Shown: positions 12-26,090 of the stretch, one piece after another
Layout: each line of letters opens with the position of its first letter
Numbering within the stretch: the stretch's first letter is position 1
NCBI GenBank assembly: GCA_964529175.1
Contig: CAZGVO010000003.1
Coordinates: 195,120-259,119 of the forward strand
Length of the DNA: 64,000 bases
Reading direction: 5' to 3'
DNA from: an uncultured Bifidobacterium sp.
Lineage (GTDB): Bacteria; Bacteroidota; Bacteroidia; UKL13-3
Made by a program: the position numbers and the translations under genes
The notes under the pieces: model-generated
Seen by the model: the letters and a program-made list of their open reading frames with translations, nothing else
Database searches by the model: none
Told to the model about the DNA's origin: nothing

Positions 12-1007
12 ATGAACATATACGACATACTAAAGAAAAAAATTGTGATTTTGGATGGTGCAATGGGTACCATGATTCAACGACATAAATTGGAAGAAGC
101 TGATTTTAGGAATGAAGCTTTGGCAAATCACGCGCATCCTTTAAAAGGAAATAATGATCTACTTTCAATTACTCGTCCTGAAATTATTAAAGGCATTCAT
201 CGTTTGTATTTTGAAGCAGGCGCAGATATTGTTGAAACCAATACTTTTAGTGGAACCACTATTGCGCAAGCCGATTATCATTTAGAACATTTGGTAGATG
301 ACATCAATTATTACTCAGCAAAAATAGCCAAAGAGGTAGCCGATGAAATGACTGCCAAAGAACCACATAAACCAAGATTTGTGGCTGGTGCTATGGGACC
401 AACTAACAGAACTTTATCTATAAGCCCAGATGTAAACGACCCAGGTTATAGAGCTACTACTTTTGACGAATTGGTAAAAGCATATAAACAACAAGCTATC
501 AAATTAATTGAAGGTGGTGTAGATATTTTATTGATTGAAACCATTTTTGATACCTTAAATGCAAAGGCTGCCTTATTTGCTGTTGATGAAGTTTTTGAAG
601 AACTTGGAAAACATTATCCAGTAATGATTTCAGGAACTATTACGGATGCATCTGGCAGAACATTATCGGGTCAAACAACGGAGGCATTTTTAATTAGTAT
701 GCAACATGCGCCATTGATGAGTATTGGCTTAAATTGTGCATTAGGAGCAAGTGCTTTACGTCCTTATTTACAAGTAATGTCAACACATTCGCCATTTTAT
801 GTAAGTGCGTATCCAAATGCAGGATTGCCTAATGAGTTTGGACAATACGATGAAAGCCCTGCTGCTATGGCAAAACAAGTGGAAGAATTCTGCAAAGAAG
901 GATTGGTAAATATTTTAGGTGGCTGTTGCGGAACTACTCCTGATCACATCAAAGCTATTGCAGAAATGGCAGCGAAGTATGAACCGAGGATTATAGTTAA
1001 TAGTTAA
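12..1007 (+). CDS. Homocysteine S-methyltransferase domain protein, the N-terminal homocysteine-binding module of a split cobalamin-dependent methionine synthase
   Basis: The 331-aa ORF starts with ATG at 12. Its sequence matches the Hcy-binding barrel of MetH/MmuM, with motifs DGAMGT and [11 protein letters not shown]. It lies immediately upstream of the remaining MetH domains. Confidence 0.85.
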
Positions 1008-1113: not shown

Positions 1114-1464
1114 ATGTTTAAGTTCGAAAATTTAGAAGTTTGGAAAAAGTCGATTGAGTTAGTTGTAAAGGTTGAAAGCGTAGTAAAAAAATTCCCAAAA
1201 GAAGAAATTTATGTGCTTACATCTCAAATGAAAAGAGCTTGTGATTCAATTTCTTTAAACATAGCTGAAGGCTCTCAAGGACAGTCTAATCCTGAATTTT
1301 CTAGATTTTTAGGTTATGCAATGCGCTCTTGCATAGAGGTTGTAGGCTGTATTTACATTGCTCAAGCAAGAAAAATAATTGATGAAGAAGATTTTAAAGA
1401 TATTTATAATGATTGTGAAACATTAGTAAAAATGATCCAATCGCTGAGAAACAAAATTAAGTGA
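1114..1464 (+). CDS. Four-helix-bundle protein (23S rRNA intervening-sequence protein family, TIGR02436-like)
   Basis: The 116-aa protein carries the characteristic N-terminus FENLEVWKKSIELVV...ISLNIAEGS. It is flanked on both sides by short palindromic repeats. Confidence 0.75.
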   Translation: MFKFENLEVWKKSIELVVKVESVVKKFPKEEIYVLTSQMKRACDSISLNIAEGSQGQSNPEFSRFLGYAMRSCIEVVGCIYIAQARKIIDEEDFKDIYNDCETLVKMIQSLRNKIK

Positions 1465-1606: not shown

Positions 1607-4279
1607 ATGATCAAAGATTATACATTACGCCTTTCGGGCTTGGAGCCATTGGTAATTACTAAAGATACCAATTTTGTAAATGTGGGAGAAAGAACCAATG
1701 TAACGGGTTCTAAAATGTTTTTACGCCTTATACGTGAAGGTAATTTTGAAGAAGCTTTGGCTGTTGCTCGTCAGCAGGTAGAAGGCGGTGCGCAAATTAT
1801 CGACATCAATATGGATGAAGGAATGATTGATGGTGTGGAATCAATGGTTCGTTTTTTAAATTTGATTGCATCTGAACCAGATATTTCTCGCGTTCCTATC
1901 ATGATTGATTCTTCTAAATGGGAAATTATAGAAGCAGGATTAAAATGTGTGCAAGGTAAATGTGTGGTAAATTCTATTTCGCTAAAAGGTGGCGAAGAAG
2001 AATTTATCCGCCAAGCAAAAATTGTAAAACGTTTTGGAGCAGCAGTAATTGTAATGCTTTTTGACGAACAAGGACAAGCAGATAACTACGAACGTAGAAT
2101 AGAAATTGCAGAAAGAGCTTATCGAATCTTAACGGAAAAAGTTCATTTCCCTGCGGGTGATATTATTTTTGACCCTAATATTTTTCCAGTGGCTACCGGC
2201 ATGGAAGAGCACAGAAAAAATGCTTTAGATTTCTTTAACGGAACAAAATGGATTAAAGAAAATTTGCCAGGTGCAAAAGTTAGTGGTGGCGTTTCAAACG
2301 TTTCTTTTTCATTCAGAGGAAACGATAAAGTGCGCGAAGCCATGCACTCAGCATTTTTATTTCATGCCATCAATAACGGAATGGATATGGGTATTGTAAA
2401 TCCAAGTCAATTGGAAGTTTACGATCAAATAGATAAAGAATTATTAGAACATGTAGAGGATGTTTTATTAGATAGAAGAGACGATGCAACGGAACGTTTA
2501 TTGGAACTAGCCGAACGTGTTAAAGGAAAAGGAAAAGAAACTGCGGTTGACAACGAATGGCGCAAAGGAACAGTTCAAGAGCGTTTGAGTCATGCTTTAA
2601 TAAAAGGAATTGTTGAGTTTGTAGAAGCAGATACCGAAGAGGCAAGGTTAATTTACGACAAACCACTTGAAGTGATTGAAGGCCCTTTAATGGCCGGAAT
2701 GAACATTGTGGGTGATTTGTTTGGTGCTGGAAAAATGTTTTTACCGCAGGTAGTTAAAAGTGCACGTGTAATGAAAAAAGCCGTGGCTGTTTTGATGCCT
2801 TACATGGAAGAAGAAAAACGCAAAAATGGCAACATGACTACCAACCAAGGTAAAATATTGATGGCAACTGTTAAAGGCGATGTGCATGATATTGGAAAAA
2901 ATATTGTAGGTGTGGTTTTGGCTTGTAATAACTACGAAATTATTGACATTGGTGTAATGGTTCCTGCCGATAAAATTTTGGAAACTGCCATTAAAGAAAA
3001 TGTAGATGTAATTGGTTTAAGTGGATTAATTACACCAAGCTTGGACGAAATGGTGCATGTTGCCAAAGAAATGGAACGTTTAGGAATGAAAATACCATTA
3101 TTAATTGGAGGTGCTACCACCAGCCGTGCGCACACAGCAGTAAAAATTGACCCTGTTTACAGCGGACCAGTTGTACATGTGTTAGATGCAAGTAAAAGCG
3201 TGCCTGTGGCGGCAAGTTTAATTAGTCCTGACCAGCGACCAGCTTCGGAAAAGAAATTTAAAGACGAGTATGAACAATTTAGAATTGATTATAAAAACCG
3301 TAAAAAAGATAAAAACTCGGTTGATTTAGCAAAAGCAAGAACCAATAAAATTCCTGTAAGTTTTGATAATATAGTTGCACCTAAATTTTTAGGAACAAAA
3401 GTGTTTGATAATTTCCCCTTGGAAGAATTGCGCCAACGCATTGATTGGACTCCTTTCTTTTTAACATGGGAATTAGTAGGTCGTTATCCTGCCATTTTTG
3501 ATGATGAAATAGTTGGTGTAGAAGCCAAAAAATTATTTGACGATGCCAATAAAATGCTCGATAAAGTAATTAACGAAAAACTACTTACCGCACGCGGTGT
3601 AATTGGTTTTTATGAAGCAAATTCTGAAGGTGATGATATAATTATTTCCAACAACGGACAACCAACAACTTTCAACTATTTGCGCCAACAAGGCGAAAAA
3701 GCTGATGGACAACCTTACTTATGTTTGGCAGATTTTGTTGCTCCGAAAGAAAGTGGCAAAAAAGATTATTTAGGCATGTTTGCCGTAACAGCAGGAATTG
3801 GAATTGAGCCTTTGGTAGAAGCTTACGAAAAAGACCATGACGATTACAATAGCATTATGATTAAAGCCATTGCCGATAGATTGGCCGAGGCTTTTGCTGA
3901 AAAAATGCACGAATTGGTGAGAAAAGAATATTGGGGTTTTGCACCTAACGAGCAATTAACCGATGATGAAATAATCAGAGAAAAATACAATAGCATTCGC
4001 CCTGCGCCAGGTTACCCTGCCTGCCCAGACCATACCGAAAAACGTAAGTTGTTTGACATTTTGCAAGCTGAAACCAATGCAGGAATTACCTTAACGGAAA
4101 ACTTTGCCATGTATCCGGCTTCGGCAGTAAGTGGTTTTTATTTTGCCAATGAGGCAAGTAAATATTTTGCGGTAGGTAAAATTCAAAAAGACCAAGTTGA
4201 AGAATATGCCAAACGCAAAAACGTAAGCATTGACTACGTTGAAAAATGGTTAGCTCCTAATTTGGGATATGATAATTAG
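1607..4279 (+). CDS. metH: Methionine synthase (B12-dependent) carrying the pterin-binding, cobalamin-binding and AdoMet-activation domains
   Basis: The 890-aa protein begins RLSGLEPL...[12 protein letters not shown], which is colinear with E. coli MetH from the Hcy/pterin interdomain linker onwards. It contains the DxHDIGK B12-binding motif and the C-terminal activation domain. Confidence 0.9.
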
Positions 4280-8697: not shown

Positions 8698-11600
8698 ATG
8701 AAAAAAATACTATTATTATTTTATTGCTTATGCACCATTTATGGATTGCAAGCACAAACACCCATTACCAATTGGGAGTATTCAATTGGCGATAATGGAG
8801 GAATTGAGCAAATTAAATCCTCGGCTTACGATGAAGCCGGAAACTTGTATGTAGCAGGCCATTTTTATGGAACGGTAGATTTAGACCACGGAACTGGAGC
8901 CTATTTACTAAGCGCTGCCGGAAGTTACGATGCTTTTGTGGCCAAATACAATTCGTTTGGTCAAATTTTATGGGCAGTACGTCTGGGAGGAACCATGGCC
9001 GAGTCAGTTAATCATTTATCGGTAGCAAATGGCTATGTGCTTTTAACAGGTTTTTTTCAAGGAACCATGAATGTATATGCTCCAAATTTTACAGCACCTT
9101 TAACCTCAGTTTCCAGTTCGTCCGATATTTTTATAGTACGTTTAGGAACAGATGGTTTATTTTATGCTAATGGCGCTTTTAAAATTGGTATGGGTGGAAA
9201 CGATGATGGAAAATGTGTAAAATCTGATGCTGCTGGAAACATTTATTTATCAGGCTTGTACTCAAGTCCTAATAATAATACCAATGTAAACTTTAACGTA
9301 CTTGGTGGTACCAATAATTTATTGGCTGCTGGTAGTGAAGATGGTTTTATAGTAAAATACAATAGCAATTTTGTATTACAATGGGTAAAATCGTACGGTG
9401 GAGGTTCTTTTAATGATGCAGTATTAACCATGGATATAGATAATAACCAAAATGTATATGCAGCTGGTTATTTTAATGGTACAAATGCAAGTTTTAACAA
9501 TAGTATATTCCTTACATCAGTTGGAGGTGCCGATGCTTTTATTTCAAAAATTGCAGCTAATGGAAATACCATATGGGCTAAACGAATAGGTGGTGGAAAT
9601 GGCGATGTAATTTCTACCATTAAACTTAATGGAAAAGGTGTAATATATGCTGGCGGTAACTTTAATGGATTAGCGAATTTAAACCCAAATGGAACCGCAC
9701 AAAACTTTACCGCTGTAGGTGGCGATGCCTTTATAAGTAAACTTGATACCAACCAAGCAACCGCTTTATGGATTAAACAATTTGGGGGAAGCGGGCCTGA
9801 TAATTTAAATGGACTTGATTTAGATACATTAGGAAATGTGTATACAACTGGCTCTTTTATAGGTTCGGCTGAGTTTCCTATTGGCATTTCAGCATCGGCA
9901 TTAAATAGTGGCAGTTGGAAAGATATTTTTGTAAGTAAACTAAATACCAATGGTGGTTTTGTTTGGTCCAAATCAATGGGTACTATCTTAGAAGATGATG
10001 GCTACAGTATTTCAGTTACTGCAAATGGTAACTATGCTTATATTACAGGAAGCAATCCTACATTTGGGCATGGTTACATGGCCAAAATTGGTGCTTGTGG
10101 CGAGTTAAAACCCATAATTGGTCTAACAAAATTATGTTCAAATACACAAAGGATTTATGCTGTAGATTCAGTTATAGGAGCTACTTCGTATGTTTGGACT
10201 TTACCTGCTGGTTGGGTTGGTACATCTAATACACGCAGCATTACAGTTACTCCAAGTGCTAACAGCGGAAATATTACTGTTAATGCCATTACTGCTTGTG
10301 GAGCTGGTTTTTCTCGTTCATTAAATATTAATTATGGAACTACAAATTTAGATAATAACTTAGTAAGGTATTGGCTTGCCAATGAAAACGACAACAATAA
10401 AGACATTAAGAATAACTTTGGCTTAACTTTGGTAAACACAGTTAAAGATACTGCTATGCACGGAACAGTTAATGGGGCTTATCGTATTTCAAATAATGCT
10501 GGTTTTATTCAATTGCAACCCACTGCCAATTTACCAACAGGCGCTACTTCTATTTCGTTATGGTATTATTACCAAAGTAATGGTGGAGGTGCAAATGTGG
10601 TATTAGGAAGTAACGGAACTGCTTTACCTGCATCGCATCCACTTATGTTAATTGATAATGCTTCGGCTACTTTATTCCCTTGGTCTAATACAGGTGCTGC
10701 CATAGGTAGTGGTGTTACCATAGCTCAAAATACTTGGCATCATATAGTATTAACGCGCAATGGAGCCAACTTTACTTTTTATGTAAATGGTGTTTTGGCC
10801 TACAGTGGCAATAATTTATCTGCTTCTAATTTTGATAGAATTGGAAACAATCGTCCTGGATTTGAAATACAAGGCGCTACAGGTAAGTTTGACGATATTA
10901 AAATTTATAATACCATTATCACCGAAGCACAGGTCAAATCGCTTTACGACTTTGGAAGCATTAAATCTGTTGATTTACTGACATCAGGTTGTAAAAATAA
11001 AACCATTTCATTTCAAGCTTTTTCAAGTAATAACAATGTCACTTACGGATGGAAGTTAAATGGAACGGTAGTAGGAAGTAGTTTACCAACTTTTGTTAAA
11101 ACGGCTGCATTAACCGATTCAGCAATTTCTGTTAGCGTAAATAGCCAATGTTTTGAAGAAACTATTTCTAAAAGTTTTAAAATTAATAGTATAGATAGTG
11201 TACAAATTATTAGCACTGATTGTGGCATTAAAGTTGGTAATAAAACATATATTGCTTCAGGCAATTATATTGATACTTTAGTTAATCAATTTGGCTGCGA
11301 TAGTATTGTATTTTTAAACCTAACTATTAGTAATAATCAACTTACCAATTTAAGCACTAATTTAATTAGGTATTGGACCTTAAATGCACAAGATTCAGCC
11401 AAGGATTTAACCAATAATTTTGTATTAAACAAATCATCGGGAATACTTTTTACCTCCGATAGGTTTGGAAACCCAAATACAGCCCAATTTATTCCGGCAT
11501 CGCCAAGCCAACAATTTACACCGGCAGTAAATATTCCAGCCAATGATTTTACCATTTCATTTTGGTATCAATTTACTTCCTCCACTTCAACCAATACCAG

Positions 11601-14600
11601 AGGTTTATTAACCAATACATTAGGAACCAATGCAGGTTATTATTTATATGCCGATGCCAATGGTAATTTATTATCAAACAATAATTTGGGAACAAGCACA
11701 AGTGCTAATTTTCAGTTTCAAAATAATAATTGGTATCATTTAACTTTTTCGTTAAATAATTTTGGAGTAGCTAAAATATACGTTAATGGCGAGTTGAAAC
11801 TTACCAACAATAATATGAGTTTGACTGGTATTGTTAGAATTGGACGAGGAGTTGGTACTTCAAATACTCCTGGTGTGGGTAGTTACGATGATATTAAAGT
11901 TTATAATACCGTTATTTCTGATGCCGATGTTTTAAAAATTTATGATAGACCAAGTATTATTAGTCGTCCTTTTTTGACTAATTTTTGTCAAAATAATTCA
12001 ACCAATTTTGCTTATAAAGTAAGCAGTTCAAACAATTCTTCTTATCAGTTTTTAAAAAATAATACAAGTGTAAGTAACGATACTTTTTATGTTGCAAATA
12101 ACCTAACCACAACCGATACTTTGGTAACATTTAAAGTGTTTTCAAAATGTGGTTATGAGGAGTTTAAAACACGTTTAAATGTTCAACCTACTAATATAAA
12201 TGTAATTGATTCATTTTGTGGTAGTTATGCTTACAATGGTAAAACTTACACAAATGCAGGAACCTATTACGACACCTTAGCTAATTTAAATGGATGTGCT
12301 GTAAATGTTCAATTAAATTTAACTTTTAAAGCTGGGGTAAATTTAAGTAATAATTTAACCCATCATTTTACACTAAACAATACTGAAAACATCAATTTAG
12401 TAAACTCAACCGCAGGTATAACAATATCTTCAACAGCTTTATCAATTGCTGGTAGAACAAATATTACAGCTACAGGTCGCTCTATTAATGCAGTAGCACA
12501 AAGTATGCAAATAGCTAGTTTACCTAACAGTAATTTAACGGTATCATTATGGTATCAGCGAACTACAAATAGTTATACTGGTGCAAGAACAATTATAGCC
12601 AATACTCAAGCCAATGGTAATATTGCAAAAATGGTTTATGCCAATTCTACTGGGGGAGTGCTTTTAGGTAATAGCACTACTACAGTTGGTGTTCCAACAG
12701 GTTTTACACTTAGCATTGGTGTTTGGTATCATATTGTTTATCAAGTAGCCAGTAATGGCGATGCAAAACTTTTTATCAACGGAAATTTAGTAAGTAGTAT
12801 TACAGGATTGCCATTAAATACCATCGCAATAATTGGTAATAGAAACGATGGAAATGAGCCTGGTATTGGGAACTATGATGATATTAAAATATATAACAAA
12901 ATTTTATCAGCAGATGAAATTTCTAAATTATACAAAATACCTTCTTTGATTGCTAAACCATCTCTTATGCAAGTTTGCGAAGGCAGTAGTGCACTACTAA
13001 CTTACCATTTTAGTGGAAATACGGGTACTAGATATGAATATAAAAAGAATGGAGTAACTTTATCTGCCGATTCGTTTTTACAAATAAATAATACCAACTT
13101 AAACGATACTTTATTTGAGTTTACAATCAATAATAGTTGCGGTTTTGAGCAATATACAACTAAAGTAAATGTTGCCCCTGCTGCTGGTGTTGGACAAAGT
13201 TTAGCTTATAGCAAAACAACCAATAGAATTACTGCCACAACAAGTTTTACTAGATACAAATTATTTAGAAATGGTGTTGTTATTGATTCTAGTAATACAA
13301 CAGGCAATATAAATTTCTTAACTACTTTATGTGGTAATTATGTTGCCCATTACAGTAATATTGGTTCTGCTAATTGCCCAGCAATTTCGCCTGTTCTAAA
13401 AATAGATTTAGATACATTAACCTTAAATACTAAAATATGTGCTGGTAAAATTTATGTATTTGGAAGCCAACAATTGAATACACCTGGCACTTATTACAGA
13501 ACAACTACTAGCACTAACGGCTGCGATAGCATAATAAAACTTAACCTTACTTTGGCTAATTCAAGCACGGCTAGTGTTAATAGAGTAAGTTGTGGTAGTT
13601 TAGTAATTTATGGTAAGACTTACACTCAAACAGGTCAATATAAAGATACATTAATAAATACTGCTGGTTGCGATAGTATTGTAACTTTAAACTTAACTAT
13701 AAACACTGGCGGACCTGCTATTAATAATATTGTTCAATCAACTTGTAACAACTTTGTTTTAAATGGAAAAACATACACCAATACTGGCATATACCGCGAT
13801 ACCTTATTTGCAGCAAGTATTACTGGTTGCGATAGCATTTTGGTACTTAATTTAACCAATTTAAAAAATGGGTTTAATCAAAATATAATTGCTTGCAAAA
13901 GCTATGTCTTTAAGGGAGTAACCATTACACAAAGTGGCACATATCGTGATACTTTAACCAATACAGCAGGTTGCGATAGTATTGTGGTTTATAACATAAA
14001 CATAACTACGGTAAATAAAATAGTAACCAAAACCGGAAATATATTAACGGCATCTGCTACAAATGCCATATACCAATGGATAAATTGTACTACCAATTTG
14101 CCAATAGCCAATGCTAATATGCAAAGTTATACGCCAACGGTTTCGGGTAGCTACAAAGTAATAATTACTCAAAATGGTTGTATTGATACATCAGCTTGTA
14201 CCAATGTAATCATCATTAATTGTAATTTACAGCTAACTCATAATGTACTGAATCCAACCGATACCATTCGTTGTAAGCAAGTTAAAGTAAATATAACCAA
14301 TGGTTCATTGCCAATTGCTTTAAAACTAACTTGGAGCACCAATATAATTGGCTTGAATTTAAACATAACCGATTCAGCTTATACCTTTAACGATGCATGC
14401 CCTGAAACTTACAAATTGGTTGCAACTGATAATAATGGTTGCAAAGATTCTATTAATTTCACTATCAATGAGCCAACAATTGGTGTAAATGATATCAATG
14501 AAAATACATTTAGCATGTATCCAAATCCTGCAAATAAAATTTTGATTATTAACAATTTAAGCAAAGAGTCTCAAATCAATATTTTTGATATAACAGGTAG

Positions 14601-14733
14601 AATAATTTATGCTGAAAATATATTGACCTCAAATACTAAGCTTGATATTGAAAATTGGAAAGATGGAATTTATACTGTGCAAGTAATAACCGAAGGTAAA
14701 ATTGCCAACAGAAAGCTTGTTATAGCTAAATAA
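8698..14733 (+). CDS. T9SS type-A C-terminal-sorting-domain cargo protein with an SBBP beta-propeller, three LamG/concanavalin-like modules and a ~42-aa two-Cys repeat
   Basis: The 2011-aa protein has a signal peptide. N-terminal SBBP-like repeats recur (DAFVAKYNSFGQILWAVRLGG and similar). Three copies of a LamG-like module each end ...YDDIK(I/V)YN.(I/V)(I/L)S..(E/D)(V/I)..LY. At least six repeats follow the pattern C...NGKTYT..G.Y.DTL.N..GCDSIV.LNLT. The C-terminus is a Por_Secre_tail (YPNPANKILII...GIYTVQV). Confidence 0.8.
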   Translation: MKKILLLFYCLCTIYGLQAQTPITNWEYSIGDNGGIEQIKSSAYDEAGNLYVAGHFYGTVDLDHGTGAYLLSAAGSYDAFVAKYNSFGQILWAVRLGGTMAESVNHLSVANGYVLLTGFFQGTMNVYAPNFTAPLTSVSSSSDIFIVRLGTDGLFYANGAFKIGMGGNDDGKCVKSDAAGNIYLSGLYSSPNNNTNVNFNVLGGTNNLLAAGSEDGFIVKYNSNFVLQWVKSYGGGSFNDAVLTMDIDNNQNVYAAGYFNGTNASFNNSIFLTSVGGADAFISKIAANGNTIWAKRIGGGNGDVISTIKLNGKGVIYAGGNFNGLANLNPNGTAQNFTAVGGDAFISKLDTNQATALWIKQFGGSGPDNLNGLDLDTLGNVYTTGSFIGSAEFPIGISASALNSGSWKDIFVSKLNTNGGFVWSKSMGTILEDDGYSISVTANGNYAYITGSNPTFGHGYMAKIGACGELKPIIGLTKLCSNTQRIYAVDSVIGATSYVWTLPAGWVGTSNTRSITVTPSANSGNITVNAITACGAGFSRSLNINYGTTNLDNNLVRYWLANENDNNKDIKNNFGLTLVNTVKDTAMHGTVNGAYRISNNAGFIQLQPTANLPTGATSISLWYYYQSNGGGANVVLGSNGTALPASHPLMLIDNASATLFPWSNTGAAIGSGVTIAQNTWHHIVLTRNGANFTFYVNGVLAYSGNNLSASNFDRIGNNRPGFEIQGATGKFDDIKIYNTIITEAQVKSLYDFGSIKSVDLLTSGCKNKTISFQAFSSNNNVTYGWKLNGTVVGSSLPTFVKTAALTDSAISVSVNSQCFEETISKSFKINSIDSVQIISTDCGIKVGNKTYIASGNYIDTLVNQFGCDSIVFLNLTISNNQLTNLSTNLIRYWTLNAQDSAKDLTNNFVLNKSSGILFTSDRFGNPNTAQFIPASPSQQFTPAVNIPANDFTISFWYQFTSSTSTNTRGLLTNTLGTNAGYYLYADANGNLLSNNNLGTSTSANFQFQNNNWYHLTFSLNNFGVAKIYVNGELKLTNNNMSLTGIVRIGRGVGTSNTPGVGSYDDIKVYNTVISDADVLKIYDRPSIISRPFLTNFCQNNSTNFAYKVSSSNNSSYQFLKNNTSVSNDTFYVANNLTTTDTLVTFKVFSKCGYEEFKTRLNVQPTNINVIDSFCGSYAYNGKTYTNAGTYYDTLANLNGCAVNVQLNLTFKAGVNLSNNLTHHFTLNNTENINLVNSTAGITISSTALSIAGRTNITATGRSINAVAQSMQIASLPNSNLTVSLWYQRTTNSYTGARTIIANTQANGNIAKMVYANSTGGVLLGNSTTTVGVPTGFTLSIGVWYHIVYQVASNGDAKLFINGNLVSSITGLPLNTIAIIGNRNDGNEPGIGNYDDIKIYNKILSADEISKLYKIPSLIAKPSLMQVCEGSSALLTYHFSGNTGTRYEYKKNGVTLSADSFLQINNTNLNDTLFEFTINNSCGFEQYTTKVNVAPAAGVGQSLAYSKTTNRITATTSFTRYKLFRNGVVIDSSNTTGNINFLTTLCGNYVAHYSNIGSANCPAISPVLKIDLDTLTLNTKICAGKIYVFGSQQLNTPGTYYRTTTSTNGCDSIIKLNLTLANSSTASVNRVSCGSLVIYGKTYTQTGQYKDTLINTAGCDSIVTLNLTINTGGPAINNIVQSTCNNFVLNGKTYTNTGIYRDTLFAASITGCDSILVLNLTNLKNGFNQNIIACKSYVFKGVTITQSGTYRDTLTNTAGCDSIVVYNINITTVNKIVTKTGNILTASATNAIYQWINCTTNLPIANANMQSYTPTVSGSYKVIITQNGCIDTSACTNVIIINCNLQLTHNVLNPTDTIRCKQVKVNITNGSLPIALKLTWSTNIIGLNLNITDSAYTFNDACPETYKLVATDNNGCKDSINFTINEPTIGVNDINENTFSMYPNPANKILIINNLSKESQINIFDITGRIIYAENILTSNTKLDIENWKDGIYTVQVITEGKIANRKLVIAK

Positions 14734-17341: not shown

Positions 17342-17758
17342 TTACCAAACATACTGTAACTTATTCATTAATAAGGCTTCTCCCACCAAGGTATCTGATC
17401 CTGTAGCTACATCCACTACTTTAGTTTCATATAATACACGGTTTTTTTCAGGAAAAATTTCCTTAACAGTAATTACAGCTTGGTATTCGGTATCTACAAA
17501 CATGGGTTTTAAAAAGGTATTGTTTTGTTTCATATAAATATGTCCTTCGGCATAATACAATGCACCAAAAATTTTGGTAAATACACTGGCACTAAAATGG
17601 CCATGAATAATGTTTCTGCCAAAAATACTGGCTTTACCAGCCTCAGGATTAGTATGCAGTGGATTGGTATCGCCACTAATTTGTGCATATAAATTTACTT
17701 GTTCTTGAGTGAACTTAATGTTGTGTGTAAACACATCGCCTACTTGTGGTGCTGCCAT
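17342..17758 (-). CDS. MaoC-like (R)-specific enoyl-CoA hydratase with a hot-dog fold, PhaJ-like
   Basis: The 138-aa protein has the DxNPLH....IxHG hydratase motif. Its size and architecture match PhaJ. Confidence 0.7.
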   Translation of the reverse strand: MAAPQVGDVFTHNIKFTQEQVNLYAQISGDTNPLHTNPEAGKASIFGRNIIHGHFSASVFTKIFGALYYAEGHIYMKQNNTFLKPMFVDTEYQAVITVKEIFPEKNRVLYETKVVDVATGSDTLVGEALLMNKLQYVW

Positions 17759-18007
17759 TTTTTTAATAATTAGTTTTTATTGTTAAACATTTTATAAATT
17801 ACTACAAGGATATTTATTTTTTTGAATTTTATGGTACAATATTTAAACACTATCAATTAATATTTTATACCAATTACAAAGCCAAACAGCTGGCAAAAAA
17901 TTTAAACAATTTAACCTCCTTTAAATCAGTATGACAAAAATCAAGTACCATGAATTGAAGCCACTGCAAAGCGATTACAAATGTTTAATGTTTTGATAAT
18001 AAACCTT

Positions 18008-18041
18008 TTGATTGACTTATTTTTACAAAAGCCTACTTTTG
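18008..18041 (+). promoter_or_regulatory. Candidate Bacteroidetes sigma-A promoter for the Met-rich protein gene: TTG at -33 and TAnnTTTG at -7
   Basis: TTG lies at 18008-18010 and tacttttg at 18034-18041, about 60 nt upstream of the start codon at 18101. Confidence 0.35.
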
Positions 18042-18100
18042 CGGCCGATTTTAGACACTAAATAGTTAAAAATCAACCACAAAAGTATAAAACTACAATA

Positions 18101-19408
18101 ATGGAAAACACCACAAAAAACATGTTTGAAACCATGGCTGATATGCAAAAACAAGCTATGGAAACTATGACAAATGCTGCTAAAACTATGCAACAAACTA
18201 TGACTAATGGATCAACCATGAGCATGGATTCTGAAAACTTTAAAAAATGGTACGACAGTCAAATGAATTGGTTTAACCAACTAAACAACGAAAACAATAA
18301 CATGCAAAATGGTATGGAGTTTTTTACCAATTATTTTAACAAACAAAATGAAATGGCAAAGCAATGGATGGAAATGAGCATGAATATGGTTCCAAACATG
18401 AACAATGGCTTTGACATGAAAAACATGAATATGGATGGTATGATGAATGCTTTCAACTCATGGAAAAACGCTATGACTGATAGTTATAACGAAATGATGA
18501 AAAATTTTAATAATGGTGAAACCAAAAACTATTTTGCCGATATGTTTAACAATTCAGATATGTATATGAAAACTTTTCAGTTTTTTATGCCTATGATGAA
18601 AAGCTTAAACGATAAAACTTTTACTCCTGAAATGTTTAAAAGCATGTTTAATACTGCTGCTTACAAAGATATGATGGACAAAATGTTTAACATGAACCCT
18701 GACATGATGAAAAACTTAATGGATAACACCATGATGACATCAATGAAAGAGAACATGTACAAAATGATGGATAATGGTAAAACAAATTACGACAACATGA
18801 AAAACAACATGAGTAATATGTTTAACTCAAACCCAATTATGGATAGCATGATGAACAATTACAACCAAATGTACGCTCAAATGCAAACCTCAATGGCGCC
18901 ATTAACCAAACTTTTTGGTAGCAACCCTAGCATGGCTAACATGGAAACTATGAAAGAATTAGTAGAAATGATGACTGCTTACAATACCAAAAATAACCAA
19001 ATGCAATACATGATGTACACCACAGGTATGAAAGCTATGGACGAAGTAGCTGAAAACATGTATGCTAAAATTAGAAATGGTGAAGATGTAAAAGAATTTG
19101 CTGATGTTTACAAAAACTGGTTAAATACCAACGATAAACACTTTGTTCAATTATTTGAAACTCCTGAGTATTCAAAATTAATGAGCGAGGTAAGTTCATT
19201 ACAATTAAACCTTAAAGGTAAAATTGAAAAGCAAATGGAAAAAGCAATGGATAAATTGCCAATTATTAATCGCTCAGAAATGGACGAGTTATATAAAACC
19301 ATTCAAGATTTGAAAAAACGCATTAGCACCTTAGAAAAAGAAAATTCTAAACTAACTGCTGAAGTTGGCGAAGAAGCTCCAAAAGCAGCTAAAAAAGCTA
19401 GTAAATAA
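18101..19408 (+). CDS. Methionine/asparagine-rich low-complexity protein with a phasin-like coiled-coil C-terminus
   Basis: The 435-aa protein has no signal peptide. About 19 of the first 100 residues are Met, and NM and MN dipeptides are frequent. The C-terminus LPIINRSEMDELYKTIQDLKKRISTLEKENSKL resembles phasin/PHA-granule-protein tails. Confidence 0.6.
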   Translation: MENTTKNMFETMADMQKQAMETMTNAAKTMQQTMTNGSTMSMDSENFKKWYDSQMNWFNQLNNENNNMQNGMEFFTNYFNKQNEMAKQWMEMSMNMVPNMNNGFDMKNMNMDGMMNAFNSWKNAMTDSYNEMMKNFNNGETKNYFADMFNNSDMYMKTFQFFMPMMKSLNDKTFTPEMFKSMFNTAAYKDMMDKMFNMNPDMMKNLMDNTMMTSMKENMYKMMDNGKTNYDNMKNNMSNMFNSNPIMDSMMNNYNQMYAQMQTSMAPLTKLFGSNPSMANMETMKELVEMMTAYNTKNNQMQYMMYTTGMKAMDEVAENMYAKIRNGEDVKEFADVYKNWLNTNDKHFVQLFETPEYSKLMSEVSSLQLNLKGKIEKQMEKAMDKLPIINRSEMDELYKTIQDLKKRISTLEKENSKLTAEVGEEAPKAAKKASK

Positions 19409-19441
19409 TTGTAAATTTTTTTGTAAATTAATTATAACCAA

Positions 19442-19478
19442 AAGCCTTGCTTATTAACTTAAGTAAGGCTTTTTGCAT
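19442..19478. terminator. Rho-independent terminator after the Met-rich protein gene
   Basis: The stem is agccttgctta...taagtaaggct with one G.U pair, followed by a T-run. Confidence 0.55.
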
Positions 19479-19796
19479 TTATGTTTAACTATTTTTCATT
19501 TAAGCAGATTTATAAATTTTGTTATTTAGTATTGTATCTCACCCTTAAAAAAGTTGGCTTCAAATTGGCAGTATATATTTAGGCAATTGTTTGAAAACAC
19601 CCAATATTAGCTGTAACTAGCTGATTTTGGGAACATAAACAAAACACACAAGTATCATTTTGGGAAAAATCTTACAACTTTGGGAAAATTTGATTTATTC
19701 AGAAATATAATATCAATTAAAAACCAGAAGTGATTTTTTTTTATTAAAACAAACTTGTTATGCCAAACACAAAACAAAAACTAACAACCTTTAGCA

Positions 19797-20189
19797 TTGG
19801 AAAACAGTAATAACATATTGAATTATAAAAAAATCTGCCTGATTGATGATGATAAAATGCAGCATTGGTTAAACGGAAAAATTATTCATAATATTGATCA
19901 AACAATAGAAATTTATAATTATTCGAATGCAGAGGCCGCCCTAAACGACCTGAAAAATAATGCCATAAAACCTGATATTATATTTTTAGATATTAATATG
20001 CCAATGATGGATGGATGGGAATTTTTAGAAGAAGCAAGCACCCAAAACCTTGAAATTCCTATTCAGATGTTAACTTCATCAATTGATAAAAACGATTATG
20101 AAAAGGCCAGAAAATATGAAGTTGTTAAAGGATTTTTACATAAACCTTTAAAGCAAGAAACACTAGAATCTATATTGATTGTTCAATAA
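19797..20189 (+). CDS. Stand-alone response-regulator receiver domain protein (CheY-like)
   Basis: The 130-aa protein has the conserved DDD and FLDINMP receiver residues. The start codon is TTG, and no in-frame ATG lies upstream of the receiver fold. Confidence 0.7.
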   Translation: MENSNNILNYKKICLIDDDKMQHWLNGKIIHNIDQTIEIYNYSNAEAALNDLKNNAIKPDIIFLDINMPMMDGWEFLEEASTQNLEIPIQMLTSSIDKNDYEKARKYEVVKGFLHKPLKQETLESILIVQ

Positions 20190-20194: not shown

Positions 20195-20881
20195 TTAGAC
20201 TTTATTTTTATTCAATAAATATTCCATAACCGTTATTGGAATTAATAAACAGGTTAATGCATAAATGGTATCTTCAATTGGAATGGTAACTATTCGTAAG
20301 CCAATAATTTCGTTAGAGTTATAAAATACTACAGGCTCAGGAGTTGCAGCACCGGTTAACACGCCATTTACCACTAAAAAAGGTATTAAGTGAACCAAGT
20401 AAGCAAACCAAAAATAGCCCATATATGTTTTCTTTAAATAAAACTGATGCCAAAGCAATAATATCAACGCTAAGGAACAGTTTACCAAAGTGTAAGTTTT
20501 TTGATAAAACAAAAGGCAAGCCAATGCTAAAATTACTATAAAAAAATAATTTATATAAGTTATCAATGGCTTAATAAAGTTATCAGAAAAATAAGCTTTT
20601 AAGCAAGCATAAATAAACACACTTGCAAATGGAACTACTACAAAAAAACTCCATTCTTCAATAGGTAAATCGTTAAGACGATAATGCCAAACATACTGAT
20701 TATTAAAGCCCCAAACACCTGCTCGGGTAAACCAACCGTCCCACAAAATAAAGAGTAAAGCATTTATGGCAATGCCAATAAAAAGTGGTTTAAACCATTT
20801 GTAAAAAGCTACCTTTTTATCGAAACTTAAAGCAAAAGGCCCAACAAATGATGCCACCATTAACCAAGCATATAAACTCAT
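20195..20881 (-). CDS. Lycopene cyclase domain-containing membrane protein (CrtYcd-type)
   Basis: The 228-aa polytopic membrane protein has lycopene-cyclase-domain-like helices and lies in a carotenoid gene neighbourhood. Confidence 0.6.
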   Translation of the reverse strand: MSLYAWLMVASFVGPFALSFDKKVAFYKWFKPLFIGIAINALLFILWDGWFTRAGVWGFNNQYVWHYRLNDLPIEEWSFFVVVPFASVFIYACLKAYFSDNFIKPLITYINYFFIVILALACLLFYQKTYTLVNCSLALILLLWHQFYLKKTYMGYFWFAYLVHLIPFLVVNGVLTGAATPEPVVFYNSNEIIGLRIVTIPIEDTIYALTCLLIPITVMEYLLNKNKV

Positions 20882-20884
20882 GGC

Positions 20885-21337
20885 TTAGTTTGACGAGTTA
20901 GGGTTTTTCCAATATTTAAGCGGAACTATAAGCATTCCAAAATTTTCGCCATGCTCTTTTGCCAAATATTTATGATGGATTTTATGCGCCCTGCGAATTG
21001 CTTTTACATAACGATTGTTCCAATGAGTAAAAATTTTGAACCTTTGATGAATGATAATATCATGCACAATGAAATAAGCTAAACCATATAACGAAATTCC
21101 AATGCCAATGTATAATCTAAAATCGTTGTACATAAGGCCTGTCATGTAACAATAAGCACTTGGAATGGCAAAAATTAAAAAGAAACTATCGTTTTTTTCG
21201 AAAAAACCAGGTTCTACTTGATGGTGGTCTTTATGCAAATACCAAAGTAAACCATGCATAATAAACTTGTGAGTAAACCAAGCCATAAACTCCATAAACC
21301 AAAAAGTAAGAAACACTACTAAAATATTAAACCACAT
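20885..21337 (-). CDS. crtZ: Beta-carotene hydroxylase
   Basis: The 150-aa protein has the histidine boxes HKFIMHG, HKDHH and HKIHH typical of CrtZ sterol-desaturase-family enzymes. Confidence 0.8.
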   Translation of the reverse strand: MWFNILVVFLTFWFMEFMAWFTHKFIMHGLLWYLHKDHHQVEPGFFEKNDSFFLIFAIPSAYCYMTGLMYNDFRLYIGIGISLYGLAYFIVHDIIIHQRFKIFTHWNNRYVKAIRRAHKIHHKYLAKEHGENFGMLIVPLKYWKNPNSSN

Positions 21338-21400
21338 ATATTTTTAAAATCGTTTTATTATACTAAACACTTTAATTGGAAATTGTTTTTAGAAAAAAAT

Positions 21401-22045
21401 CTAATACCACCAATTCATTCCTGCAAAAAACACCAATTGGAAAACATATAACCAAGGTGCAATTTTATTGGTTAATGGCAACTCTAATTTTTGGTAAACA
21501 AACATAAAAGCAAAGGCAAAAATATACCAAGCTGTGTAGTTTTGAATAGGAATACTGCCATTTTTCCAATACCAAAAATCTAATTGCGGAGCCACATGTT
21601 CAATTAAAAAATCAACACACAACATGAACAAGGCACTTAAAGCAATTTTTATGATTGGGTTAACTGTATTTAGTTTGCCAATTTTACTGAAAAACAGTTC
21701 GGCCACATGCATAGAAACATAACATAGCATTACCCAGTTTAAACCAATAATTACAGGCACATCAGCCATTTTTAAGCCAAGGTTATTTCCATAAAAATAC
21801 TGACCAAAAATTCTACCAGTAGTAACTCCTAAAAGTTCTAAAATATAACCTGCTTGAAAAACACCAATGGCCCAAATCCAGAAAAAAGTGTTTTTAGGTT
21901 GATGGAAATAAAACAACACAACTGCACTAATTATCAAATTGATAGGAGAAAGTGATAATAAATCTAACTTAAAAATAGCAGAGCCAAAAAGCCCCACAGC
22001 ATATAAAATGGCTAAAATTATAATGGCAATATTTTCTTTTTTCAT
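21401..22045 (-). CDS. Carotenoid biosynthesis membrane protein (PF04240/DUF422-like)
   Basis: The 214-aa multi-transmembrane protein sits between crtZ and the desaturase. The family assignment is from memory of the fold and is not verified. Confidence 0.45.
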   Translation of the reverse strand: MKKENIAIIILAILYAVGLFGSAIFKLDLLSLSPINLIISAVVLFYFHQPKNTFFWIWAIGVFQAGYILELLGVTTGRIFGQYFYGNNLGLKMADVPVIIGLNWVMLCYVSMHVAELFFSKIGKLNTVNPIIKIALSALFMLCVDFLIEHVAPQLDFWYWKNGSIPIQNYTAWYIFAFAFMFVYQKLELPLTNKIAPWLYVFQLVFFAGMNWWY

Positions 22046-22124
22046 TTCATTTTACTTATACTTTTTTTCAAAATTCGTTTCGACAAGCTCAACGACCACG
22101 GGCATTGAGCTTGTCGAAATGCAA

Positions 22125-23603
22125 TTACTTTCCATAATCATCCTTAATTAAACCAGCGGCAATTTTAGCTGAATTTAAACACAAAGGAATTCCTCCACCA
22201 GGATGCACCGAACCGCCACAAAAGTACAATCCTTTTATATCAGAACTAAAATTTTTATGCCTTAAAAATGCTGCATACCTATTATTACTTGCATTGCCAT
22301 AGAGCGCACCAAGGTGGCTGCTGGTTTTGCTTTCAATACTTCGTGGATCTAATATATTTTCGGTTACAATGTACTTTTCAATATCAGTTTTCAACAAACG
22401 ATTTAATTTTGAAACAATATTTTTTCGTGCTTCAGCAATTAATTCATCCCAATTTTGCCCTTGGTTATTGGGTGTATTTATCATCAAGAACCAATTTTCG
22501 CAACACGCAGGTGCATCATCTGGCTTATATTTAGAGGTAATGTTAATGTAAATAGTTGGGTCTGCGTAAATGTTTTTTTTACTAAAAATATGCTCAAATT
22601 CTTCTTGGTAATTTTCGGTAAAAAGTATATTATGTAAATCTAACTCGGCAAATTGTTTATTAATTCCCCAATAAAAAATTAAAGCTGACGAAGACTTTTC
22701 TTGCACTAAAATTTTTTCAGGATGTTTTACCTTTGGCAATAACTTTTTGTAAGTAGGGTAAATATCCATGTTCGATAACACAATATCTGCCTCATAAAAC
22801 TGCTCTCCTGCTTTTACGCCTTTTACCTGCTTGTTACTTTGGTTTAAAACTATTTCAGAAACCTTTTTATTAAACTCAAAATTTACTCCTAAATCCAAAG
22901 CCAATTGGTAAATACTTTGGCTAATTTGATGCATGCCATTTTTAGGAAAAAAAGTTCCAATATTGCTTTCTAAATGCGGAATCATATTCAATAAAGCTGG
23001 CGATTGATATGGGTTACTGCCATTGTAAGTAGCAAATCTGTTAAAGTACTGAACCAATCTTTTATCAGCAAAAATTTGCTCATTTTCGTGGTTCATACTG
23101 TTAAACAAATTAAGTTTTAAAATACTTAAAATGCCTTTAAGCGTAGCTAAATTTAAAAAGTTCTTTACTTTATGTAAACTACTTTCTATAAAAATAGGTG
23201 TGGTGGTTTTATACCTAAACTCAGCATTTTTAAGGTATTGAAAAAATGGTTTTGGATTGGTTAATCCTAACTTTTGGTTTAGTTCATTGGCCATTTTTTC
23301 TGGCTGATGGTAAGCTGTAAAACGGGTTCCATCTTCGTAAAAATAATTGCAAGTTTTTTCTAACTGCAAGTATTCAAAACTGTTTTTATTTTGCTTTGCA
23401 ATATCATACAGTTCAAGCACTAACTGAGGCAACGTAAAAAGCGAAGGACCAGCATCAAATCTAAAACCTTGTTGAGTAAACTCGGTTAATTTTCCGCCAA
23501 AATAAGCATTGGCTTCCAAAACTGTTACTTTAAAGCCCATTGATTGAAGCCTAACAGCACTGGCTAAGCCAGCTATTCCAGAGCCAATTATTACTATTTT
23601 CAT
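22125..23603 (-). CDS. Phytoene desaturase-family FAD oxidoreductase (CrtI/CrtD-like)
   Basis: The 492-aa protein has an N-terminal GSGIAGL Rossmann motif and is carotene-desaturase-like throughout. Confidence 0.7.
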   Translation of the reverse strand: MKIVIIGSGIAGLASAVRLQSMGFKVTVLEANAYFGGKLTEFTQQGFRFDAGPSLFTLPQLVLELYDIAKQNKNSFEYLQLEKTCNYFYEDGTRFTAYHQPEKMANELNQKLGLTNPKPFFQYLKNAEFRYKTTTPIFIESSLHKVKNFLNLATLKGILSILKLNLFNSMNHENEQIFADKRLVQYFNRFATYNGSNPYQSPALLNMIPHLESNIGTFFPKNGMHQISQSIYQLALDLGVNFEFNKKVSEIVLNQSNKQVKGVKAGEQFYEADIVLSNMDIYPTYKKLLPKVKHPEKILVQEKSSSALIFYWGINKQFAELDLHNILFTENYQEEFEHIFSKKNIYADPTIYINITSKYKPDDAPACCENWFLMINTPNNQGQNWDELIAEARKNIVSKLNRLLKTDIEKYIVTENILDPRSIESKTSSHLGALYGNASNNRYAAFLRHKNFSSDIKGLYFCGGSVHPGGGIPLCLNSAKIAAGLIKDDYGK

Positions 23604-25598: not shown

Positions 25599-25640
25599 TA
25601 GACGATAGACCATGGTCAATTAACTATGGACTATTATCTA
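25590..25640. repeat. Third locus of the palindromic GACCATGGTC/GACGATAG repeat family, wedged between the convergent purQ and dtd stop codons
   Basis: The sequence gttaatagttaatagacgatagaccatggtc...ctatggacta shares its first 17 nt with the copy at 1001-1017. The repeat supplies the codons VNS and a TAA-TAG double stop to purQ. Confidence 0.6.
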
Positions 25641-26090
25641 TTCCTTCAACTTACTATCAATCATTATAGTCACAGGGCCATTATTGGTTAAGCTGATTTG
25701 CATATCGGCACCAAATGATCCTGTGGCTATTTTTTTGCCCAAAAGCTCTTCCAGTTTTGCAATCATTTTTTCGTACAAAGGAATTGCAAATTCGGGCCTA
25801 CTAGCTTTGATATAAGATGGGCGGTTTCCTTTTTTAGTAGAGGCAAAAAGTGTAAATTGACTTACCAATAAAATATCGAAATTGGCATCAATAAGTGAAA
25901 TATTCATCACGCCATTTTCATCGTTAAACACCCTGAGATTTACTATTTTCTGTGCCAACCAATTGATATCTTCTTCCGAATCAGCATCCTCAATTCCTAA
26001 TAAAATCAATAAACCATTTCCGATTTCAGAAAATAGTTTGTTATCAATACGGACTTGGGCTTTTGTAACTCGTTGAATAATAATGCGCAT
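25638..26090 (-). CDS. dtd: D-aminoacyl-tRNA deacylase
   Basis: The 150-aa protein begins MRIIIQRV and carries the SQFTL and NGPVT motifs. Confidence 0.85.
   Translation of the reverse strand: MRIIIQRVTKAQVRIDNKLFSEIGNGLLILLGIEDADSEEDINWLAQKIVNLRVFNDENGVMNISLIDANFDILLVSQFTLFASTKKGNRPSYIKASRPEFAIPLYEKMIAKLEELLGKKIATGSFGADMQISLTNNGPVTIMIDSKLKE

What the first reader, a model, noticed from the sequence alone, without database searches (positions are those of the whole stretch)
17342..19408. Cytoplasmic Met/Asn-rich 435-aa protein with a phasin-like tail, next to a PhaJ-like hydratase
About one residue in five or six is methionine, with dense MxM, NM and MN motifs, and there is no signal peptide. 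The last ~60 residues form a charged coiled coil resembling phasin/PHA-granule-associated protein C-termini. The divergent neighbour is a 138-aa MaoC/PhaJ-type (R)-enoyl-CoA hydratase. The protein could be a granule or condensate scaffold, a methionine storage or ROS-sink protein (substrate for Msr enzymes), or a Cu(I)-buffering protein. None of these roles is established for Bacteroidota.
Basis: partly seen in the sequence, partly recalled or inferred. Interest (0 to 1): 0.65.

Follow-up and report, generated by a model that had tools for sequence, protein, structure and literature searches.

The report
Methionine-rich PhaE subunit of bioplastic synthase
The odd methionine-rich protein is a divergent but recognisable PhaE, the non-catalytic partner of the class III enzyme that makes polyhydroxyalkanoate storage granules; in this bacterial lineage its catalytic partner gene phaC has moved elsewhere in the genome, so the finding is largely ordinary apart from its unexplained composition.

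Summary
ORF 18101..19408(+) encodes a 435-aa protein with 72 Met (16.6%) and 14.5% Asn. Other window ORFs average 2.2% Met. The divergent neighbour 17342..17758(-) is a PhaJ-like MaoC hydratase.

The protein is not an orphan. It passes Pfam PF09712 (PhaE, class III PHA synthase subunit) at 68.7 bits against a gathering score of 25.7. Public pipelines already name its homologs PhaE. In 54 of 69 related Bacteroidota loci the order is maoC, phaE, phaC, and that phaC passes TIGR01836.

The window's own clade (PhaE at least 76% identical) keeps maoC and phaE but has no phaC beside them. Five MAGs of this clade carry a stand-alone class III phaC elsewhere. In one, phaE and phaC lie about 854 kb apart on a single 1.35-Mb contig.

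phaE is under strong purifying selection (dN/dS 0.07-0.12).

Met enrichment is a lineage trait. It falls from 15-19% in close relatives to 4-5% in distant PhaE-like proteins. Met sits on the hydrophobic faces of amphipathic helices: MxxxM is enriched and MxM is not.

Copper-buffer and Met-store readings gain no support. Verdict: a new member of a known kind, of modest interest.

The parts
18101..19408 (+). phaE: 435-aa Met/Asn-rich, all-helical PhaE-family protein, the non-catalytic subunit of a class III PHA synthase
   Evidence: ORF. PF09712 at 68.7 bits against a gathering score of 25.7, covering residues 89-411. 342 homologs, all carrying PF09712. dN/dS is 0.07-0.12 within the clade. Composition. 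Helical models.
17342..17758 (-). maoC/phaJ-like (R)-specific enoyl-CoA hydratase, 138 aa, divergent from phaE
   Evidence: PF01575 at E 2e-18. Best PDB match is 1IQ6, A. caviae PhaJ, at E 9e-13 over residues 6-129, with SGDTNPLH aligned to SEDFNPLH. The gene lies next to phaE in all window-clade loci and most relatives. dN/dS is 0.02-0.12.
18012..18041 (+). Promoter-like element for phaE: TTGAC (18012-18016), then TACTTTTG (18034-18041), of the Bacteroidota -33/-7 type
   Evidence: Both boxes are invariant in 7 aligned window-clade intergenic regions. A TTG..TAnnTTTG element sits 45-106 nt upstream of phaE in most relatives. The consensus itself comes from established knowledge of Bacteroidetes promoters; function was not tested.
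17931..18005 (+). Clade-specific conserved non-coding block upstream of the phaE promoter; candidate regulator-binding region
   Evidence: Near-invariant columns in alignment A3. The core AAGCCACTNNNNAGCG occurs once in the window and only in the 9 window-clade loci of the 96 fetched. No Rfam match. It is not a conserved ORF, because L007 has a stop at the third codon.
19441..19474 (+). Intrinsic-terminator-like hairpin 33 nt after the phaE stop codon: 13-bp stem, 6-nt loop, U-run
   Evidence: RNA fold of 19405-19490 gives a centroid hairpin at -17.4 kcal/mol, with a whole-segment z of -4.07 against 200 shuffles. This fits phaE being monocistronic here, with no phaC downstream.

Best explanation
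The 435-aa protein is the PhaE subunit of a two-component class III polyhydroxyalkanoate synthase (PhaEC) in an uncultured low-GC Bacteroidia lineage.

Proposed mechanism, with shown and inferred steps marked:
- The divergent neighbour PhaJ hydrates trans-2-enoyl-CoA from beta-oxidation to (R)-3-hydroxyacyl-CoA. This is inferred from homology to 1IQ6.
- A class III PhaC polymerises these monomers. It is about 350 aa and carries a GICQGG lipase box. It is shown in relatives and in sister genomes, but not in this window.
- PhaE binds PhaC and the nascent hydrophobic granule. This is inferred from the family.

In this clade phaE and phaC have become unlinked. phaJ and phaE stay together, with their own conserved promoter and terminator. 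phaC lies hundreds of kilobases away.

The extreme Met content is a lineage-specific replacement of ordinary hydrophobic residues by Met on the apolar faces of amphipathic helices. It plausibly gives a flexible surface that binds polymer. This is an inference by analogy with other Met-lined binding surfaces and was not tested. The conserved C-terminal leucine-zipper-like helix (residues 391-418) probably mediates oligomerisation or PhaC binding (inferred).
For: Family assignment:
- PF09712 PhaE at E 6.9e-19 and 68.7 bits (gathering score 25.7), over nearly the whole profile.
- The only NCBIfam hit of note is TIGR01834 PhaE, at E 4e-11.
- All 342 homologs carry PF09712, and some are named PhaE by NCBI or JGI.
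- A profile search finds 1171 representatives. These grade into 340-370-aa PhaE-like proteins that share the C-terminal RSEMDxLYKxxxELKKxxxxLE motif.

Gene neighbourhood in relatives:
- phaE is immediately followed by a 350-aa phaC.
- 54 of 69 species-representative phaC loci have phaE directly upstream, usually with maoC beside it.
- That PhaC passes TIGR01836 (412 bits; cutoff 365.3).

The window clade:
- No phaC lies next to phaE, and the downstream contexts vary.
- No phaC is found in the 64-kb window by tblastn.
- The same genomes carry a stand-alone phaC that passes TIGR01836 (417.5 bits).
- On JAWVHD010000004.1 (1,345,211 bp), phaE is at about 1.2246 Mb and phaC at about 0.370 Mb.
- In GCA_049318585.1, phaE is on contig 147 and phaC on contig 261 (L038).
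- Three further MAGs show paired accession numbers: MES2379940/MES2381140, MES2726984/MES2727674 and MFY7734211/MFY7734635.

Functional constraint: dN/dS is 0.07-0.12.

Met as a helix-face hydrophobe:
- Significant hydrophobic moments, with Met clustered on one face in 5 helices.
- MxxxM enriched at z 3.3.
- Window Met columns hold M, L, F, A, V or I in distant homologs.
Against: - phaC was not found in this window. The window's own genome could not be searched, so the partner is inferred from sister genomes at 80-87% PhaE identity.
- The curated NCBIfam PhaE model is far below its cutoff (42.9 against 154.95 bits). This is a divergent subfamily, not an equivalog.
- No PhaE from Bacteroidota has been characterised experimentally, as far as the literature searches show.
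- The structure models have low confidence (pLDDT 43-49). The amphipathic-helix reading therefore rests on predicted secondary structure plus sequence periodicity.
- Nothing tested here explains why Met specifically is favoured.
Confidence: 0.8

Rival explanations
1. It is mainly a phasin-like granule coat or scaffold protein. It descends from PhaE but is now functionally uncoupled from the synthase, as its separate locus, promoter and terminator would suggest.
For: - All-helical with amphipathic helices.
- Weak Phasin and PHA_granule_1 similarity in the C-terminal helix (E about 0.03).
- Unlinked from phaC in this clade.
- Own terminator and conserved promoter.
Against: - The phasin models are well below threshold, while PhaE is above.
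- The same Met-rich protein family sits in a phaE-phaC pair in 54 of 69 relatives.
- Every clade genome that could be checked still has a class III phaC.
- In the systems studied so far (established knowledge), class III PhaC needs PhaE for full activity.
- The two roles are not mutually exclusive.
Confidence: 0.12
2. The Met residues act as a methionine or sulfur reserve, or as a sacrificial antioxidant sink recycled by methionine sulfoxide reductases. The PHA connection would be secondary.
For: - 16.6% Met, seven times the window average.
- The enrichment is conserved across the clade.
- It is not explained by GC content (r = -0.21).
Against: - Met positions follow helical i/i+4 periodicity and sit on hydrophobic faces.
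- They are exchanged with L, F, I, V or A in homologs.
- No msr gene lies in the conserved neighbourhood.
- Met content varies smoothly from 4% to 20% within one orthologous family, without a change of gene context.
Confidence: 0.05
3. It is a cytoplasmic Cu(I)-buffering protein that uses Met-rich motifs.
For: Only the high Met content.
Against: - MxM is under-represented rather than enriched (7 observed, 11.7 expected). MxxM is not significant either.
- No Cys and only one His.
- No signal peptide, whereas known Met-motif copper proteins are extracytoplasmic (established knowledge).
- No cop or cus genes in any of the neighbourhoods examined.
- A confident PhaE family assignment.
Confidence: 0.02
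4. It is a decaying or drifting low-complexity ORF left behind after loss of phaC.
For: No phaC beside it. Unusual composition.
Against: - dN/dS is 0.07-0.12 at dS of about 1.
- 32 invariant columns across 116 homologs.
- Conserved promoter and upstream block.
- phaC is retained elsewhere in the clade genomes.
Confidence: 0.01

Closest known systems
PhaE of class III PHA synthases (PhaEC of Allochromatium vinosum, Synechocystis and haloarchaea; Pfam PF09712, TIGR01834)
   Same: - Full-length PF09712 match above the gathering score.
- Shared C-terminal motif and helix.
- In relatives it is encoded directly upstream of a TIGR01836 class III phaC.
- Cytoplasmic, non-catalytic and helical.
   Different: - 3-4 times more Met: 16.6% against 4-5% in distant PhaE-like representatives.
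- About 65-90 extra N-terminal residues relative to the 340-370-aa forms, which start matching the profile at about position 67.
- Far below the TIGR01834 cutoff.
- In this clade the gene is unlinked from phaC by hundreds of kilobases.
- It is paired with phaJ rather than with phaA or phaB.
Phasins (PhaP; Pfam PF05597, TIGR01837)
   Same: Amphipathic helical protein with a charged C-terminal coiled-coil-like helix. Association with granules is expected.
   Different: The sequence match is sub-threshold only (14.7 against 28.8 bits). The protein is two to four times larger than typical phasins (my own knowledge). It belongs to the PhaE family.
PhaJ, the (R)-specific enoyl-CoA hydratase of Aeromonas caviae (PDB 1IQ6); this comparison is for the neighbour gene
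   Same: Same size (138 against 134 aa). The MaoC hot-dog domain aligns end to end. The Asp/His-bearing SGDxNPLH segment is conserved.
   Different: The best PDB match is modest (52 bits, E 9e-13). Substrate chain length is unknown. No NCBIfam equivalog is reached.
Met-lined hydrophobic binding surfaces (SRP54 M domain, calmodulin); an analogy from established knowledge only
   Same: Met clusters on one face of amphipathic helices. This could give a plastic apolar surface.
   Different: There is no sequence or fold relationship. The analogy was not tested here.

Membership tests
PhaE, class III PHA synthase subunit (PF09712) | Sequence match to the Pfam family model above its gathering score, over most of the model | tested here: met
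   68.7 bits against 25.7. Protein residues 89-411 align to profile positions 2-310 of 311.
PhaE, class III PHA synthase subunit (TIGR01834 subfamily) | Score above the NCBIfam curated cutoff | tested here: not met
   42.9 bits against a cutoff of 154.95. Distant PhaE-like representatives also reach only 61-97 bits. The model is narrow, and this protein belongs to a divergent branch.
PhaE, class III PHA synthase subunit | Encoded next to, or co-transcribed with, a class III phaC | tested here: not met
   Not met in the window: there is no phaC within 64 kb and a terminator follows phaE. Met in 54 of 69 related loci.
PhaE, class III PHA synthase subunit | Co-occurrence with a class III PhaC in the same genome | tested here: inconclusive
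   Met in five sister MAGs of the clade, including the same 1.35-Mb contig in one. The window's own genome could not be searched.
PhaE, class III PHA synthase subunit | Forms a complex with PhaC and is needed for full synthase activity; found on PHA granules | not testable with these tools
   Needs biochemistry. No solved PhaE structure was found by sequence.
Phasin (PF05597 / TIGR01837) | Sequence match above the family threshold | tested here: not met
   PF05597 scores 14.7 against 28.8 bits. TIGR01837 scores 14.5 against 94.7 bits. Only residues 369-413 match.
PhaJ / MaoC (R)-specific enoyl-CoA hydratase (neighbour gene) | MaoC hot-dog domain with the conserved Asp/His hydratase segment | tested here: met
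   PF01575 at 66.5 bits against 27. SGDTNPLH aligns to SEDFNPLH of 1IQ6.
Met-motif copper-binding proteins | Enriched MxM/MxxM motifs, extracytoplasmic location, copper-gene context | tested here: not met
   MxM z = -1.6 and MxxM z = +1.2. No signal-peptide-like hydrophobic stretch. No copper genes nearby.

The most novel reading that the evidence does not exclude
The Bacteroidia PhaE lineage may have turned an accessory synthase subunit into a Met-'bristle' granule-surface protein. On this reading the Met cladding has a function of its own. It could be a redox-responsive or sulfoxide-switchable granule coat, or a plastic polymer-binding surface that lets PhaE act away from PhaC. The genetic uncoupling of phaE (kept with phaJ) from phaC would then reflect separate regulation of coat and catalyst.
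Probability: 0.12. Interest if true: 0.55.

Novelty: new member of a known kind. Interest (0 to 1): 0.3.

Why it matters
PHA storage is thought to be rare in Bacteroidota. One genome survey found class III PhaC in only 13 Bacteroidetes genomes (PMC8312272). No Bacteroidota PhaEC has been characterised in the literature I could search.

This work shows three things:
- A widespread group of uncultured, mostly freshwater-type Bacteroidia MAGs carries a complete phaJ, phaE and phaC set.
- One sub-lineage has split the two synthase subunits across the chromosome.
- Its PhaE is one of the most Met-rich conserved proteins one is likely to meet.

This has practical use for annotation. An 'orphan' phaE here does not mean a missing synthase.

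It also offers a natural series, from 4% to 20% Met in one orthologous family, for asking what Met-for-Leu replacement does to a polymer-binding protein. It does not reveal a new kind of system.

Tried and rejected
- **PDB sequence search with PhaE:** no meaningful hit; the best was E 0.24 to an endolysin.
- **Two AlphaFold2 runs (13 and 116 sequences):** only pLDDT 43 and 49.
- **Foldseek of the better model against the PDB:** nothing below E 0.75, only generic long-helix proteins. No structural inference was drawn beyond 'helical'.
- **Rfam scan of 17700-19850:** no match.
- **Sigma-70 consensus scan:** no more promoter-like sites than in shuffles, and it missed the terminator hairpin.
- **tblastn of two PhaC proteins and an adjacent hydrolase against the window and L001:** nothing.
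- **Attempts to tie the nearest genome (GCA_027484685.1, 98% PhaE) directly to a phaC:** failed. That MAG is unannotated, and none of the PhaC look-ups returned it.
- **Micro-ORF in the conserved upstream block (MTKIKYHELKPLQSDYKCLMF):** rejected, because L007 has a stop at the third codon.
- **Literature searches for Met-rich PhaE:** only irrelevant hits.
- **Response regulator at 19797..20189:** rejected as a partner. It is present only in the window and L001, not in the other clade loci.
Full report
**1. The observation**

The ORF listing returns both ORFs at exactly the stated coordinates: 18101..19408(+), 435 aa, and 17342..17758(-), 138 aa. The two genes are divergently oriented across a 342-bp spacer.

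- The 435-aa product has 72 Met (16.6%), 63 Asn (14.5%) and 45 Lys. It has no Cys and one His.
- The 37 window ORFs of at least 150 aa average 2.2% Met and 8.7% Asn. The next-richest has 4.7% Met.
- Met richness is confined to residues 1-320.
- The claim of 'dense MxM, NM and MN motifs' does not survive a composition-preserving shuffle (z = -1.6, +0.9 and -1.3). MxxxM is enriched instead (21 against 11.6, z = 3.3).
- No hydrophobic segment exists (maximum 19-residue hydropathy 0.07). This fits a cytoplasmic protein.

**2. Family assignment**

- Pfam gives PF09712 (PHA_synth_III_E) at E 6.9e-19 and 68.7 bits against a gathering score of 25.7. Residues 89-411 align to profile positions 2-310 of 311.
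- The phasin model PF05597 reaches only 14.7 bits, below its threshold of 28.8.
- NCBIfam's narrower TIGR01834 PhaE model is the top hit but far below its cutoff (42.9 against 154.95 bits).
- A search of 5.8 billion protein clusters finds 342 homologs. All carry PF09712. All those with a taxonomic label come from Bacteroidota or Bacteroidia MAGs, and several are named PhaE by NCBI or JGI.
- A profile search of 1.84 billion representatives finds 1171 relatives. These grade into 340-370-aa proteins with 4-5% Met that score 73-97 bits on TIGR01834.
- These distant relatives share the C-terminal block Y..K..Q..MY..G, F..W...N.K.Y..LF.T.E[YF]S and RSEMDxLYKxxxELKKxxxxLE with the window protein.
- The neighbour is a MaoC domain. 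Its best solved relative is A. caviae PhaJ (1IQ6, E 9e-13), with SGDTNPLH aligned to SEDFNPLH.

**3. Context in relatives**

- In L002 (PhaE 48% identical) and L003 (58%), phaE is followed within about 115 bp by a 349-351-aa gene with PhaC_N and Abhydrolase_1 domains.
- That protein has a GICQGG lipase box and passes TIGR01836, class III PhaC (412 bits; cutoff 365.3).
- A scan of one genome per species with this PhaC returned 69 loci.
- In 54 of them a Met-rich phaE lies directly upstream of phaC, usually with maoC beside it.
- The ancestral arrangement is therefore maoC, then phaE, then phaC.

**4. The window's clade is different**

I examined six loci with PhaE at least 76% identical to the window: L001 (98%), L005, L007, L009, L093 and L095.

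- All keep maoC next to phaE, and most keep the S9 peptidase as well. None has phaC.
- The downstream genes differ between them: a response regulator plus carotenoid genes; two unknown genes; bshC; a lycopene cyclase; alaS.
- tblastn finds no phaC or remnant anywhere in the 64-kb window.
- A strong hairpin with a U-run sits 33 nt after the phaE stop.

Conversely, four low-GC loci (29-35% GC: L021, L025, L038, L043) hold a phaC with no phaE or maoC within 10 kb. This holds by tblastn and by profile search. Their PhaC proteins form a clade at 81-93% mutual identity and pass TIGR01836 (417-421 bits).

The two halves belong to the same genomes.

- On contig JAWVHD010000004.1 (1,345,211 bp, GCA_040384145.1), phaE with the S9-maoC-phaE synteny lies at about 1.2246 Mb. 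phaC lies at about 0.370 Mb. They are about 854 kb apart.
- In GCA_049318585.1, phaE is on JBMOGB010000147.1 and phaC on JBMOGB010000261.1 (L038).
- Three more MAGs show PhaE and PhaC protein accessions a few hundred numbers apart: MES2379940/MES2381140, MES2726984/MES2727674 and MFY7734211/MFY7734635. The last belongs to the 87%-identity PhaE cluster.

For the window's own genome, an unlinked phaC is therefore a strong inference. It is not an observation.

**5. Is phaE functional here?**

- Pairwise Nei-Gojobori dN/dS within the clade is 0.07-0.12 at dS 0.9-1.65. For the 98% pair it is 0.074 at dS 0.15. maoC gives 0.02-0.12.
- The 116-sequence alignment has 32 invariant and many near-invariant columns.
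- The spacer carries an invariant TTGAC...TACTTTTG pair (18012-18041), matching the Bacteroidota -33/-7 consensus known from the literature. Upstream of it lies a 75-nt clade-specific conserved block.
- The gene is maintained and apparently expressed from its own promoter.

**6. What the methionines are doing**

- Met content is 14-17% in the window clade, 10-19% at 43-60% identity, 7-10% at 28-41% identity, and 4-5% in distant PhaE-like representatives.
- It correlates only weakly with locus GC (r = -0.21). AT bias therefore does not explain it. Asn does track GC somewhat (r = -0.39).
- Of the 72 window Met columns, 46 are Met in all six clade members. The replacements are mostly L, T, I, V and A.
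- In distant homologs the same columns hold M, L, F, A, V and I.
- Both AlphaFold2 models are all-helical but of low confidence: pLDDT 43 and 49. Only residues 154-196 and 276-421 exceed about 57.
- Within the predicted helices, hydrophobic moments exceed shuffles (z up to 4.4). Met clusters on one face in five helices (z at least 2.2).

The simplest reading is that Met has replaced ordinary hydrophobic residues on amphipathic-helix faces. Why Met is preferred is unknown. A plastic apolar surface for binding amorphous polyester, by analogy with other Met-lined binding surfaces, is my inference and was not tested.

**7. Mechanism (shown and inferred)**

Shown:
- family membership;
- the phaJ-phaE(-phaC) association;
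- co-occurrence with class III phaC in the clade;
- purifying selection;
- the helical amphipathic character.

Inferred from established knowledge of class III synthases and of PhaJ (PMC8312272; PMC10215190, which cites Müh et al.):
- PhaJ supplies (R)-3-hydroxyacyl-CoA from beta-oxidation intermediates.
- PhaC polymerises through its Cys-Asp-His site.
- PhaE binds PhaC and the granule and is required for full activity.
- The C-terminal heptad helix (L397, I401, L404, I408, L411, L418) mediates oligomerisation.

**8. Rivals**

- A purely phasin-like role is possible and not exclusive, but the phasin models fail.
- Met-store or ROS-sink roles are not excluded. They are unnecessary given the structural pattern, and no msr genes are linked.
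- A Cu(I)-buffer role is contradicted by the motif statistics, the absence of Cys and near-absence of His, the location and the context.
- A decaying ORF is refuted by dN/dS.

**9. Novelty**

- The family is known, and pipelines already call these proteins PhaE.
- What appears undescribed, within the literature I could search, is the extreme conserved Met enrichment of the Bacteroidia branch, its N-terminal extension, and the phaE/phaC split in this sub-lineage.
- I rate it a new member of a known kind, of modest interest (0.3).
- There is a small chance (about 0.12) that the Met cladding and the uncoupling reflect a distinct granule-surface function.

Noticed in passing
window 17931-18005: A 75-nt non-coding block just upstream of the phaE promoter is almost invariant in all window-clade loci, although dS is about 1 in the flanking genes. 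Its core AAGCCACTNNNNAGCG is found only in those 9 of the 96 fetched loci. It has no Rfam match and is not a conserved ORF. It may be a regulator-binding site that arose with the phaE/phaC split.
   Followed up: partly
window 12-4279: Methionine synthase metH is split. A homocysteine S-methyltransferase domain ORF lies at 12..1007. A 116-aa '23S rRNA intervening sequence protein' ORF follows at 1114..1464. The pterin-binding, B12 and activation domains come last at 1607..4279. Its nearness to a Met-rich gene is probably coincidental.
   Followed up: no
L051, L053-L056, L063, L065, L066, L069-L071: A second, higher-GC (37-54%) Chitinophagaceae-like lineage also has a class III phaC with no PhaE-profile hit or maoC within 10 kb. 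L051 has only 544 bp upstream of phaC. Whether these genomes carry an unlinked PhaE, a different partner, or none is unknown.
   Followed up: partly
window 19797-20189: A stand-alone 130-aa receiver-domain response regulator with a TTG start lies between phaE and the carotenoid genes. It is present only in the window and its 98% relative L001, not in the other clade loci, so it is probably not part of the PHA module.
   Followed up: partly
window 20195-23603: A carotenoid gene cluster on the minus strand: a lycopene cyclase domain protein, an FA_hydroxylase (CrtZ-like), a Caroten_synth protein and a phytoene-desaturase-like amine oxidase. The domains are read from the syntenic L001 annotation. 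The cluster lies next to phaE in several clade members (L009, L093).
   Followed up: no
window 8698-14733 and 30679-39831: Two giant ORFs of 2011 and 3050 aa. The relative of the first in L001 carries SBBP, PKD, Laminin_G_3 and Por_Secre_tail domains, marking it as type IX secretion cargo. The second was not analysed.
   Followed up: no
L021, L025, L026, L032, L035 and others; P0435: Record titles of many MAG contigs carrying near-identical Bacteroidia phaE/phaC loci name implausible organisms: Bifidobacterium, Comamonas, Chitinophaga pinensis and Candidatus Methylacidiphilales. Organism labels on these records should not be trusted.
   Followed up: no
window 25638-27002 compared with L001 18265-20507: Between dtd and the DUF559 gene, the 98% relative L001 carries extra small genes, including a ParE-toxin family ORF. 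The window lacks them. This is a small strain-level indel.
   Followed up: no
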